DNA of 63,377 bases, counting the filler, from Halocafeteria seosinensis (Eukaryota), in assembly GCA_001687465.1 (NCBI GenBank). It is 7 parts of 7 records of this genome, joined end to end, with 100 filler letters (N's around TTAATTAATTAA, not from the genome) between each part and the next. Parts side by side here need not be neighbours in the genome. Positions count along the whole stretch, not along the records: positions 1,141 to 23,713 come from LVLI01000008.1; positions 23,814 to 35,504 come from LVLI01000009.1; 5 more parts are not named here. One strand, given 5' to 3'. Shown one piece after another: positions 14,392 through 35,411 of the stretch. The notes beneath the pieces are model-generated. The model ran no database searches. It saw nothing but the letters and a program-made list of their open reading frames with translations, and was not told the DNA's origin. Made by a program: the position numbers and the translations under genes. Position 1 is the stretch's first letter; each line of letters begins with the position of its first letter.

Positions 14392-14939
14392 TAATCAGTT
14401 ATTCTAAACGTGAAATGGTATCCTTGACTAGGGGTTTTGGTCTTTAGAGTATCTAGATTGTAAGTTTCATAAAACTCTACAAATTTTGGGTATGTTTCCT
14501 CATCGTAGATATGGTCTAAATCAACAGTAATAAATTTACTCTTATCCATAACCATTCCGTAGTTTATTTTTGGATTTTCCTTTATGCCTTTCAATACGTC
14601 CTTGGTTCTACGCTTTGTTTTTTCCCTATCCGTAACCTTTTCCCATCCATTTTTCGAAGGTCTTTTCAGTCCTTCATATAATGGAATTAGGTCAAAAAAC
14701 TTGCTCATTTTCTTTGCTTGTTTGTATTTCAAATTATCAGCTTTGGTCGCCATCTTATCTATACTCTCCTTATAGTGCTCAGTCTTTAAGCCATTAGGGG
14801 GTTGGTTCATCAAAGATTTACTAAATTTGTTATCTTTATCCATCTTTTCTGTTGGTTCTTCCTCTATACTCTTCCTATATCGCCTAGTCCTTAAGCCATT
14901 AGGGGGGTCATTGTTAATTTCTATATTCTCTCCAGTCAT
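14392..14939 (-). pseudogene. N-terminal primase-polymerase (Prim-Pol) part of a primase-helicase, truncated at the host junction
   Basis: NYGMV..FITVDLD..KTKTPSQGYHFTF motifs. The ORF tail LRKKPSLCFGY.. is host intron sequence that also occurs at 39445+. Confidence 0.8.
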
Positions 14940-16192
14940 TGTTATGATTATATAAAAACTATATATAAAAATTATTTCCATTGAAATGCGCGTTTAAAAT
15001 TCACTATCGCTTAAAACAGTAATTCATTAGGTAGCTGTATTACTTTTATGGATTTTATAGTGGACCCATTTTGGACATACAGTTAATTGTATATCCATTA
15101 TGGGCACAGTTAAAAACAGTAAAAATAATTTGAAGTGTTCTTGTGAAGTTGAGGTATTCATACACTAAATAAAAAAGCTGTTTTTGTAGTCAAAACTACT
15201 CCTATAAAGCCGTAAAACATATCGTTATAATCACTGTTTCAAGACGCATCTACTCATTTTATTCATTTATGGAGTTGATAGAATAACAAAAGCCCGACCA
15301 TCTATCCCGACCACTACCCGCACCCAAAGCTTTATGGTAGGGAGGGAAGCTCCAAAGGGGAACTCAAGGGGCAAGTAGAATGGCGGGATATATTCACTCA
15401 TTTTATTCTTCTTATCACTCTAAAACACTTGTGATATGGTTGATTAAACATTGCTGGTTTTGATTGTGTGATTGGTTTTCTAGATAAGACGGACTTTTGG
15501 AAGTTATGGACCTATAGTCCTACAGGGGAAGGAGGGAAAACTACAAAAAAGGTAAGGGAGGGCTGAGATGGAACAGACGGAGAATTTACGGATATGCTTT
15601 ACTATCGTAGCCATCCATTGAGGCTGAAACAATGTTGATAAGATAGAGAATGAAAAATAGACTAGGATGATATGGTTCGTTTTCAAATTACTCATTGTTT
15701 TTATCCCTTTACAGACGTTTAAAGGGGGCTTTGAGAGGCTCTAGGACGGGAAATCCTAGAGGGATGTAAACAACAAAAAAGGTGAGGGATAGCAGACCGG
15801 ATGATTGGAGGCCTTGAAATGGTGATTTTCTAGATGGTAGGTATGATGCATATGTATGGAAACAGCGGAGAATATCCTTTGTAATGGCCTAGTTGGCGTT
15901 TGTATTGGTGAAGTGTGAGTGGAGTAAATTGGGATTTTCTATACGGTGGGGAGGGCCGGTATGGATGGGTTATGGTGCGGTGCTTCTACAGTGCCCATTT
16001 ATGGCTCATATACCTGCTTTGATACCGTGGTGTGATGAAAACTACATTAACAATGCTTATAACTAGCTGCTGGGAAGGAATGGGGAGCTTTTGAGGTGAT
16101 GGTGTGAATTGAGGAAGTTGACGTGAATTCTACGTGAATTTGTAGAACGGCTTAAAGACTGGGGGATATACCAAGAGTATAGAGAAATAATA

Positions 16193-16810
16193 ATGAACTA
16201 CCAAATGAAAACCCATATACGCGAATTAATGGAACTGCTGGATGAAAATCAAGGAGAGATACCAAATGGTTTTTATTTATCCTGTGCGAACAAGTTGAGA
16301 GATTTATTTAACGAGAGTGATAGTGATTATGGAAGTGATACAAGCAGTGATTATGAAAGTGATACAAGCAGTGATATTGATAGTGTGGATGAAGAAGATG
16401 ATATGGATAGTGTGGATGAAGAAGAAGATGATATGGATAGTGTGGATGAAGAAGAGGAAATAATTGAAAGAAGGCCGGTAGGAAGACCGAACTTGCCTGA
16501 TTTAGAACGGTCGTATAATTGGATAGTCAAGTATAAAATGCTGGACAATAATATTATTAAGAAATTGAGGTTAGTTGAGGAACCATCCATAGAATACGAA
16601 ATGGTACCAATGTTAGTAGAAAAAGTTGATAGAAAGAACCATCAACACGCTTACCGTTCCTATGGTATTGATGATAGCGAATTAGAAACTTTATTTGACA
16701 AATTAAAAACATTTCACACGAAAATTCAGGACAAAGATATGATTGTTGAAGAGGATGAAAATAATGAGGATGAAACAAGCGAAGAAGGGGCTCAAGCCTG
16801 TCCCGTCTGA
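16193..16810 (+). CDS. Virophage hypothetical protein with acidic repeats
   Basis: 205-aa ORF with DSVDEEE repeats; C-terminal half nearly identical to ORF 33525-34043. Confidence 0.75.
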   Translation: MNYQMKTHIRELMELLDENQGEIPNGFYLSCANKLRDLFNESDSDYGSDTSSDYESDTSSDIDSVDEEDDMDSVDEEEDDMDSVDEEEEIIERRPVGRPNLPDLERSYNWIVKYKMLDNNIIKKLRLVEEPSIEYEMVPMLVEKVDRKNHQHAYRSYGIDDSELETLFDKLKTFHTKIQDKDMIVEEDENNEDETSEEGAQACPV

Positions 16811-34151: not shown

Positions 34152-35123
34152 ATGGTGAAGAATTTAGAAAAGGTAATCAAAGAGTTTTTAAAACAGAATC
34201 AGAAAGGGAAGAAAAAGAACGAACCAAAGAAAGAAAAGAAAGAAGAGGAACCAAAAGTAGAAGTGGAAGAAGAAATTAAAGAGGAAAACCCCCAGCAATC
34301 TGACACTAAAATTGATATTCCTAATGATACATCTTTGCCTAGTTCAAGTGAGATATCAAAGATACCTTCTGATGTTACATATTTTCAAGTTTGTACCGCT
34401 TCTTATGTAGAACATAAGAAAAGACCTAGTCTTATTAACAGATTCTGGCAATATATACCAAGTAGTTCAACGGATACCGTAGCAGTCTATATAGACAAAC
34501 TAAATAAGGTGATGTTAGTTGCTTATCGTGGGACAGTCGTAACTAGTCCAAATGATTTACAAGCTGATTCAAAGATTGCTTTTAACCGTTTAAGTGAAAC
34601 AACTAGATTTCAGAATGACTTTAAGGCGACTGGCACTTTGCTTGAGGAGTTTTCACCTGAAGATTTTAGTTATTTTTTCACTGGTCATAGTTTGGGAAAC
34701 GCGATTCAACTGGAAATGAGCCGGAAATTTAAAGTGATTAGTGGAGGAAGAGGCTATAATGGTGCTTTACAACCACGAGATATTGTTCAAACTCCTAAAA
34801 AGTTTAACTTTTGGTACATCAAAGGTGACCCGTTGTTTTCTCTCTCAGGACGATTTCTAACTAGGAATTTGTTTGTTTTCCCTCAAGTAACTAAAGGAGC
34901 TTTGGGAAATCATAGTCTAGAGAATTTCCAAGGTCTAACCAAATCTGATGCGATTAAGTCGGGAGGTAGTAAGCGAAATATTAAAAAACTTCCAACAAAG
35001 GCTGAACTTGTTAAGTTAGGATTAGCAAAGAAAGGCGATAAGAACGTAACAGTTGGAGGTAGTAGTATTCCGAAAGTTGTCGTTGATTTCTACAATGAAT
35101 TGGAGAAAGAGTTGTTAAACTAA
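34152..35123 (+). CDS. Class 3 lipase-like hydrolase, second copy
   Basis: GHSLG motif; 323 aa versus 329 aa (one KGKKKN unit fewer). Confidence 0.88.
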   Translation: MVKNLEKVIKEFLKQNQKGKKKNEPKKEKKEEEPKVEVEEEIKEENPQQSDTKIDIPNDTSLPSSSEISKIPSDVTYFQVCTASYVEHKKRPSLINRFWQYIPSSSTDTVAVYIDKLNKVMLVAYRGTVVTSPNDLQADSKIAFNRLSETTRFQNDFKATGTLLEEFSPEDFSYFFTGHSLGNAIQLEMSRKFKVISGGRGYNGALQPRDIVQTPKKFNFWYIKGDPLFSLSGRFLTRNLFVFPQVTKGALGNHSLENFQGLTKSDAIKSGGSKRNIKKLPTKAELVKLGLAKKGDKNVTVGGSSIPKVVVDFYNELEKELLN

Positions 35124-35160
35124 ATTATTTTAATTCTTTTGAAAGAGTTAAAATAAGTTA

Positions 35161-35411
35161 TTATGCTGTTACGTCCGTGAAACTGTTAGATACCAGCTTA
35201 TATAAGTTATTACCGTTAGCTGATATATTATTATGTTCAGCTGTAAGGTTATATATGGATACGTTCCCTGAAGCAAAAGCACTTACTGTATTATGAAGTT
35301 CAAACCCCCAACCGTTCTGTTGTCCTTGTATTCCGTTGCTACTGAATATACAGGAGTTAACAGTTAGAATAGGGCTAGTTGGGTTAGCTTCTTCAAACTG
35401 AATTCGCATTC
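35161..35411 (-). pseudogene. 3' fragment of the beta-helix fibre gene, cut by telomeric repeats
   Basis: Matches the C-terminus of 17943-19427; homology stops at 35411. Confidence 0.9.

What the first reader, a model, noticed from the sequence alone, without database searches (positions are those of the whole stretch)
14392..35411. Endogenous virophage carrying two integration enzymes side by side (rve-chromo integrase and tyrosine recombinase), with no visible pPolB
Seen: MCP, penton, ATPase, YR and rve integrase on one contig (23814-35504), with the protease on the neighbouring contig. Known: Mavirus uses an rve integrase plus protein-primed PolB; Sputnik has a YR plus primase-helicase. 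Inference: the MCP motifs (EETPWISP..GLWGVSNMN, RVGG) look Sputnik/lake-virophage-like rather than Mavirus-like. This would be a hybrid integrating lineage and a candidate inducible anti-giant-virus defence locus in this protist.
Basis: partly seen in the sequence, partly recalled or inferred. Interest (0 to 1): 0.9.

Follow-up and report, generated by a model that had tools for sequence, protein, structure and literature searches.

The report
Decaying virophage copies at chromosome end
These are two broken pieces of a virophage (a parasite of giant viruses) in the genome of a single-celled eukaryote, likely the salt-loving flagellate Halocafeteria; one piece carries a retrovirus-type integrase beside a likely second integration enzyme and ends in telomere repeats, and both this gene pairing and virophages at chromosome ends are already in print.

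Summary
The genes are real. Contig B (23814-35504) holds a Sputnik-type major capsid gene (frameshifted near 29215), penton, ATPase, an intact rve-chromo integrase and a likely tyrosine recombinase (YR; motifs only). Contig A (14392-23713) holds a likely protease and a Prim-Pol gene cut by host DNA. No pPolB is in these fragments. The window is a string of contigs with spacers. A and B share a 1.7-kb block at 96%, so they are probably two copies of one multi-copy family, not one element. Neither has a clean integration end: A joins host DNA in mid-gene and B is capped by (TTAGGG)n in mid-gene. The novelty claim fails: rve plus YR without pPolB is published for Cafeteria EMALE types 5-7 (2021), and rve plus YR for some non-Mavirus, often subtelomeric virophages of Halocafeteria seosinensis (2026 preprint). 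The host is very likely that species: one host protein is 99.7% identical to a EukProt record whose accession prefix I recall, but could not confirm, as its transcriptome. What remains of interest is a probable telomere-healing junction inside a virophage gene, plus Mimivirus-style 3' hairpins.

The parts
12269..14035 (-). Host-side bacterial-type AAA-ATPase-like gene next to the virus; multi-copy family (paralog at 57612-59838)
   Evidence: PF09820 E 4.5e-9; paralog 28% identical, E 1e-32; a near-identical copy appears with a GT..AG segment 14174-14241 skipped in runs X2 and X3
14391..14392 (.). Host-virus junction in contig A: the repeated 5' region of the host gene family (14202-14391, also at 39434-39629) abuts the middle of the viral Prim-Pol gene; no TIR or TSD
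   Evidence: blastn 88.5% over 200 nt; sequences diverge after ...CCGTAGA; GC 47.1% host vs 35.6% viral; no bridging piece among the rows shown (405 rows hidden)
14392..14981 (-). Prim-Pol (primase-polymerase) N-terminal part, cut by host DNA
   Evidence: PF09250 E 1.6e-5; PHROG primase E 3.9e-7
14982..16192 (.). 1.2-kb region between divergent viral genes, without an ORF of 80 aa or more
16193..16810 (+). ORF 205 aa; its 3' part (from 16489) is shared with ORF 33525-34043, its 5' part is not: a recombination or assembly joint
   Evidence: run X1 has contigs with other continuations on both sides of 16489-16491
16916..17905 (+). Lipase-like ORF (GHSLG motif); second copy at 34152-35123
   Evidence: weak Lipase_3 E 0.16
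17943..19427 (-). Pectin-lyase-like beta-helix protein, 494 aa (possible fibre); intact in this copy
   Evidence: PF12708 E 2.8e-6
19485..21023 (+). 512-aa protein with SAP domain
   Evidence: PF02037 E 1.1e-5
21048..21764 (+). Likely maturation cysteine protease
   Evidence: H118/D133/Q180/C189 motifs; no HMM or PDB hit; fold failed, pLDDT 33
21924..22217 (.). Repeat block with four copies of an AT-loop palindrome of about 15-bp stem; possible terminal hairpin or origin region
22300..23713 (.). AT-rich tail (29% GC) with ORF 147 aa (22839-23282, -); one X1 contig continues differently after 22299
   Evidence: PHROG 9576 E 0.0014
23816..24658 (+). Likely tyrosine recombinase, 5' end cut by the contig start
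   Evidence: motifs R124, K161, TxxR228, H266, Y275; 39% to P0096, whose motif is HQLR; 23% to a viral-contig protein in L005; fold failed, pLDDT 40
24815..25963 (-). rve integrase with chromodomain, intact D-D(35)-E, convergent with the YR
26008..27145 (-). Two ORFs (266 aa and 92 aa) of unknown function; weak tail-fibre-like hit for the first
27142..27753 (-). GIY-YIG endonuclease 1
   Evidence: PF01541 E 3.5e-11
27829..29645 (-). Virophage major capsid protein, Sputnik-type double jelly roll, split by a frameshift near 29215
   Evidence: contigs of runs X1 and X2 differ by a 2-nt indel at this place
29679..30632 (-). Penton (minor capsid protein)
   Evidence: PF21507 E 9.1e-8
30635..31183 (-). 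GIY-YIG endonuclease 2, 52% identical to the first
31387..32247 (+). Likely packaging ATPase
   Evidence: Walker A G77-T84, Walker B CFDD165; weak ATPase_2 and terminase hits
32285..33489 (-). ORFs of 105 aa and 289 aa, no family assigned
33719..35411 (+). Second copy of block 16489-18187 (96.1%): end of ORF 172 aa, lipase, and only the last 82 codons of the beta-helix gene
35412..35504 (+). Telomere tract joined directly to the broken viral gene: TTG, two variant TTATGG units, then (TTAGGG)n to the contig end

Best explanation
These are two truncated copies of a multi-copy endogenous virophage family in a stramenopile, likely Halocafeteria seosinensis; the intact virus likely entered host chromosomes with its rve-chromo integrase, and the copy on contig B likely lost its distal part to a chromosome break that telomerase healed inside a viral gene. 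Shown: the gene set, the Sputnik-type capsid in its own clade, the shared 1.7-kb block, many variant copies in run X1, the mid-gene host junction and the mid-gene telomere junction in the assembly. Inferred: the intact genome joins the B genes (YR, rve, MCP, penton, ATPase) to the A genes (lipase, fibre, SAP protein, protease) and replicates with a Prim-Pol rather than pPolB. Inferred: it is expressed by a Mimiviridae-like helper, given an AT-rich motif before start codons and 3' hairpins. Inferred from the literature's own hypothesis: the YR serves integration into the giant-virus genome. These two copies would not make particles alone; any antiviral defence would come from intact siblings.
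For: Gene calls. Viral GC 34-36% and GC3 0.24-0.37 against host GC 47-48% and GC3 0.44-0.48. One contig joins host and virus without a gap, another joins virus and telomere. 728 contig records of X1 laid on B: 273 at 99+%, 238 at 95-99%, 217 at 90-95%. MCP clade of 12 of 153 tips, support 1.0, long stem; it includes P0097, a complete MCP from the same TSA prefix as the host protein. Host HID1 is 99.7% identical over 988 aa to that TSA record; the next hits are stramenopiles at about 50%. The H. seosinensis preprint reports host GC 47%, virophage GC 35%, a monophyletic non-Mavirus MCP clade, RVE plus Yrec in a subset, primase-polymerases, GIY nucleases, terminal palindromes in non-pPolB types, viral genomes at 13 chromosome ends and a bacterial-like gene at a telomeric hotspot. 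Hairpins with 12-15-bp stems at 8 of 18 gene ends (6 distinct hairpins), reached by at most 1 of 100 shuffles; TATA[GTA]A within 30 nt of 13 of 17 starts, shuffle mean 3.5. Sputnik has Mimivirus hairpin signals at 16 genes (PMC6723459).
Against: The link from the TSA prefix to the species is recalled; no call confirmed it. The genome preprint writes the telomere unit as TAACCCT (7 letters) while the window has a 6-mer; this may be loose notation or a real mismatch. No H. seosinensis virophage sequence could be compared directly. YR and protease rest on motifs, and the YR lacks the first His of HxxR. No TIR or TSD was found, so rve-made ends are not shown. The promoter motif was chosen after viewing the same upstream sequences. 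10 of 18 gene ends have no such hairpin.
Confidence: 0.8

Rival explanations
1. Contigs A and B are one locus: host DNA, then a tandem or rearranged virophage array running out to the telomere.
For: The contigs are neighbours in the file, A ends and B begins in AT-rich viral DNA, and their gene sets are complementary. Tandem subtelomeric virophages are reported in H. seosinensis.
Against: The same spacer separates all contigs, including unrelated host ones. No listed run piece spans either stretch. Even if true it would still be two copies, since the 1.7-kb block differs by 4%.
Confidence: 0.3
2. The contigs are short-read mosaics of several near-identical copies, and the junctions (14392, 16489, 35412) or the MCP frameshift are assembly artefacts.
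For: Run X1 holds only 65% of the words of 24000-31000 and hundreds of variant contigs; it shows other continuations at 16489-16491 and 22299. The host flank is multi-copy.
Against: The telomere joint has no shared repeat on the viral side and begins with two variant units, which looks more like an aged telomere than a mis-join. All 30 bins of both stretches are covered in X1.
Confidence: 0.2
3. Contig B is the end of a free linear virophage episome capped by host telomerase, not a chromosome end.
For: B holds no host sequence, only virus plus telomere.
Against: The cap cuts a gene and removes the protease side of the genome; the capsid gene is frameshifted; partial virophages at chromosome ends are reported from long reads in the likely host.
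Confidence: 0.04
4. The locus is an intact, inducible provirophage of a new hybrid lineage.
For: Both integrase-type genes and the four core genes are present across the two contigs; the MCP clade has no named reference in my tree.
Against: Frameshifted MCP, cut Prim-Pol, cut fibre gene, no TIR; the gene combination is published.
Confidence: 0.07

Closest known systems
Endogenous virophages of Halocafeteria seosinensis (bioRxiv 10.64898/2026.07.28.741278; 74 virophage MCPs already counted in PMC10120064)
   Same: Host and viral GC (47% and 35%), MCP clade unrelated to Mavirus, RVE plus YR in a subset, primase-polymerase, GIY nucleases, palindromes in non-pPolB types, partial genomes at chromosome ends, bacterial-like gene at a telomeric hotspot. 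Very likely the same elements.
   Different: Subtype not assignable: figures, supplements and sequences were not visible. The text read does not describe telomere addition inside a viral gene or 3' hairpins.
Mid-GC EMALE types 5-7 of Cafeteria burkhardae (PMC8547959)
   Same: rve-INT plus YR, no pPolB, primase-type replication gene, endogenous in a bicosoecid.
   Different: EMALEs have Mavirus-clade capsids and, when complete, TIRs and TSDs. This capsid is Sputnik-type and these copies have no such ends.
Sputnik/Zamilon (Sputniviroviridae)
   Same: MCP and penton Pfam families, a YR, hairpin 3' signals.
   Different: MCP very distant (72.7 bits against over 300 for its own clade and 130-210 for most other listed relatives); Sputnik has a YR where Mavirus has rve, and its reported integration is into a mimivirus genome.
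Bigelowiella natans provirophages
   Same: Endogenous virophages with a retroviral integrase (PMC6428243).
   Different: Different host; the primary paper was not held, so gene content was not compared.

Membership tests
Virophages sensu stricto (Maveriviricetes, PMC9952930) | Virophage-type MCP | tested here: met
   PF22031 E 3e-9, PF21915 E 2.3e-6, clade profile to Sputnik 3j26_A E 1.9e-19; Pfam was used, not the ICTV profiles
Virophages sensu stricto (Maveriviricetes, PMC9952930) | Virophage-type ATPase | tested here: inconclusive
   Walker A/B present; only generic ATPase and terminase hits; ICTV profile not available
Virophages sensu stricto (Maveriviricetes, PMC9952930) | Virophage-type cysteine protease | tested here: inconclusive
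   H/D/Q/C motifs; no HMM, PDB or fold support; lies on the other contig
Virophages sensu stricto (Maveriviricetes, PMC9952930) | Penton (expected, not required) | tested here: met
   PF21507 E 9.1e-8
Virophages sensu stricto (Maveriviricetes, PMC9952930) | Genome of 15-45 kb and dependence on a giant virus | not testable with these tools
   Only fragments of 9.3 and 11.6 kb; hairpin and promoter signals are indirect
Mavirus/EMALE (Maviroviridae) | Mavirus-clade MCP | tested here: not met
   Clade profile hits 1 of 177,635 PDB sequences at E<=10, Sputnik V20; that Mavirus capsid chains are in the PDB is recalled
Mavirus/EMALE (Maviroviridae) | rve integrase with chromodomain | tested here: met
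   no integrase tree was built
Sputniviroviridae | MCP best hit or clade with Sputnik references | tested here: inconclusive
   Own long-stem clade among unnamed MCPs; Sputnik scores far lower than these; no named references in the tree
Tyrosine recombinases | Catalytic R-K-HxxR-H/W-Y residues and fold | tested here: inconclusive
   R124, K161, R228, H266, Y275 present, first His replaced by Thr; homologue P0096 has HQLR and a weak Phage_int_SAM_5 hit, E 0.014; model pLDDT 40
Integrase-inserted provirophage | Terminal inverted repeats and target-site duplication | tested here: not met
   No inverted match longer than 93 nt in 14392-35411; both visible ends are mid-gene breaks
H. seosinensis endogenous virophage clade | Host is H. 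seosinensis | tested here: inconclusive
   99.7% to EukProt record GECG01014937.1; species of that prefix recalled; GC values match; telomere unit is written differently in the preprint
H. seosinensis endogenous virophage clade | MCP inside the published monophyletic clade | not testable with these tools

The most novel reading that the evidence does not exclude
Virophages build chromosome ends in this protist: breaks inside subtelomeric virophages, perhaps cut by their own GIY-YIG nucleases or integrases, are healed by telomerase in mid-gene, so viral DNA becomes the terminal sequence of host chromosomes. This would explain the reported virophage bias of its subtelomeres.
Probability: 0.2. 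Interest if true: 0.55.

Novelty: already known. Interest (0 to 1): 0.22.

Why it matters
As a gene combination it adds little: dual-integrase virophages without pPolB are published from Cafeteria, and rve plus YR virophages from the likely host itself. The useful residue is mechanistic. The base-level joint between a broken viral gene and telomere repeats gives a testable route by which partial virophages come to sit at chromosome ends. The Mimivirus-style 3' hairpins and start-proximal motif predict the kind of helper virus to look for; the preprint says none is known for this host.

Tried and rejected
No whole genome was held, so copy number and siblings could not be counted. Structure predictions of YR and protease gave pLDDT 40 and 33; no fold search was run on them. 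The ESM Atlas gave no answer in 4 tries. Viral-contig scans: MCP twice, protease and ATPase gave 0 loci; YR and rve gave 1 weak locus each. The metagenome scan gave 4 loci; the one close relative is a 2.2-kb contig with little besides the MCP, so gene neighbourhoods of the clade remain unseen. The YR had no match among phage records. Run search: no RNA holder listed. Summed contig depth was not used as copy number. Rejected: a YR 5' frameshift (the frame is open from the contig start); the CroV-type TCTA motif (2 of 17 starts, chance level) and AAAATTGA (0 of 17), both motif names recalled. Ten look-ups for the species behind the TSA prefix found nothing. Blanc 2015 was not held. Three look-ups of earlier scan findings were empty.
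Full report
Layout. The window is a string of contigs separated by N44-TTAATTAATTAA-N44 spacers, so order does not show adjacency. Contig A is 1141-23713: host DNA (47.1% GC) to 14391, viral DNA (35.6%) after. Contig B is 23814-35504: viral DNA (34.4%) to 35411, then telomere repeats. GC3 is 0.24-0.37 in 8 viral genes and 0.44-0.48 in 4 host-side genes.

Genes. On B: rve integrase with chromodomain (E 2.3e-13 and 4.8e-8; D78, D132, E168), two GIY-YIG nucleases, MCP, penton and a P-loop ATPase. 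The MCP is split by a frameshift near 29215; contigs of runs X1 and X2 differ by a 2-nt indel there, so not all copies share it. The YR frame is open from 23816 and has R124, K161, TxxR228, H266 and Y275. It has one homologue in the large protein search (P0096, which has HQLR) and a distant one in a viral contig. No library named it and its model failed, so 'YR' is a motif call. On A: a Prim-Pol N-terminus, a lipase-like ORF, a beta-helix protein, a SAP-domain protein, a likely protease (motifs only) and a block of palindromes. No PolB motif is in the six frames, and the stretches without a called gene are at most 1.2 kb. This shows absence from these fragments only.

Two copies. 16489-18187 matches 33719-35411 at 96.1%. 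Upstream of that block the two differ, and run X1 has contigs with other continuations there. X1 laid 728 records on B, spread over 273 at 99+%, 238 at 95-99% and 217 at 90-95%. This fits a family of diverged copies; depth was not used for copy number. The gene sets of A and B are complementary around the shared block, so an intact genome likely holds both. That is inference.

Ends. At 14391/14392 the repeated 5' region of a host AAA-ATPase-like gene family meets the middle of Prim-Pol. The window's other copy of that flank and a loose end in X3 continue into a different sequence. No bridging piece was among the rows shown; 405 rows were hidden. At 35411/35412 the beta-helix gene is cut, leaving 82 of 494 codons, and is followed by TTG, two TTATGG units and (TTAGGG)n. 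No TIR was found. Both ends are therefore breaks, not integrase-made termini.

Capsid lineage. The post-frameshift MCP part found 11 relatives among 6,381 candidates, at best 46-47% identical over most of its length. A 10-row profile hit 1 of 177,635 PDB sequences, Sputnik V20, and 1,997 representatives, with a gap between 6 hits above 300 bits and the rest at 210 or less. A FastTree of 153 rows (7 of 159 candidates under 430 aa dropped; 363 columns; midpoint root; no named references) puts the window in a 12-tip clade with support 1.0.

Host. HID1 (50972-54103, another contig of the window) is 99.7% identical over 988 aa to EukProt record GECG01014937.1; the next hits are oomycetes at about 50%. 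I recall that prefix as the Halocafeteria seosinensis transcriptome; no call confirmed it, though EukProt does hold that species as a transcriptome. A complete MCP of the same clade, P0097, carries the same prefix. GC values match the published 46.8-47% host and 35% virophage figures. Against: the genome preprint writes the telomere unit with 7 letters. I put the identification at about 0.9.

Expression signals. 8 of 18 gene ends (6 distinct hairpins) carry 12-15-bp stems reached by at most 1 of 100 shuffles; 10 do not. TATA[GTA]A lies within 30 nt of 13 of 17 starts, against 5 of 17 further upstream and a shuffle mean of 3.5; the motif was chosen after viewing these sequences. Sputnik shares hairpin and late-promoter signals with Mimivirus. 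A Mimiviridae-like helper is a likely, untested, inference.

Mechanism. Likely course: an rve-integrated virophage family expanded in the genome; copies decayed by frameshift, recombination and truncation; one copy broke and was healed by telomerase. The division of labour (rve for the nucleus, YR for the giant virus) is the published hypothesis, not tested here.

What is known. PMC8547959 (passages): mid-GC EMALEs lack pPolB and carry a YR; rve is in types 1-7 and YR in types 5-8. bioRxiv 10.64898/2026.07.28.741278 (parts 1-4 of 5 of the text; figures and supplements unseen and may bear on every point here): 36 complete virophages in a clade unrelated to those of Cafeteria, a subset with RVE plus Yrec, viral genomes at 13 chromosome ends. 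PMC10120064 (passages and supplement rows): 74 virophage MCPs in that species. PMC9952930 (passages and section 2.1), PMC6428243, PMC6905037, PMC6723459 and bioRxiv 10.64898/2026.06.25.734631 (passages). Six more papers were searched only for the accession or species name. Two searches for virophage-telomere joints (listings only) showed no paper on telomere addition inside a virophage gene; the library is partial.

Verdict. Real and correctly annotated, but already known in kind and very likely in this organism. Interest 0.22. The boldest open reading, telomerase healing that makes virophage DNA the chromosome end, has probability 0.2 as a general mechanism and would deserve 0.55.

Noticed in passing
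window 15550-15712: One contig of run X2 (a 96% copy) skips a GTAAGG..ACAG segment inside the viral intergenic region; X1 shows no such joint. X2's kind is not on record and the letters between are not known. If RNA, this would be a host-spliced transcript from virophage DNA.
   Followed up: partly
window 12269-14035 and 57612-59838: Two paralogs (28% identical) of a bacterial-type AAA-ATPase-like gene (PF09820); a near-identical copy of the first appears with a 68-nt GT..AG segment skipped upstream in X2 and X3. It may be the 'Deltaproteobacteria-like' gene reported at a telomeric hotspot; not tested.
   Followed up: partly
window 21924-22217: Four copies of an AT-loop palindrome with about 15-bp stems, next to a point where an X1 contig diverges (22299); candidate terminal hairpin or replication origin.
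   Followed up: partly
P0097 and P0244: Complete 598-aa virophage MCPs from the same TSA prefix as the host protein; P0097 is 37-43% identical to the window's MCP pieces: a second subtype in a transcriptome assembly.
   Followed up: partly
window 60070-61984: PIF1-like helicase fragment (E 1.9e-6), possibly Helitron-like.
   Followed up: no
window 62085-63372 and 1141-1927: ORF fragments that look like non-LTR retrotransposon parts by eye; not scanned.
   Followed up: no
window 5281-8031: 916-aa predicted surface protein with glycine-rich repeats and a 156-nt tandem Ser/Thr repeat.
   Followed up: no
window 42872-42949: Perfect 78-nt palindrome (39-nt arms, no loop) in host DNA.
   Followed up: no
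window 44612-47089: Host protein with two AP2-domain stretches.
   Followed up: no
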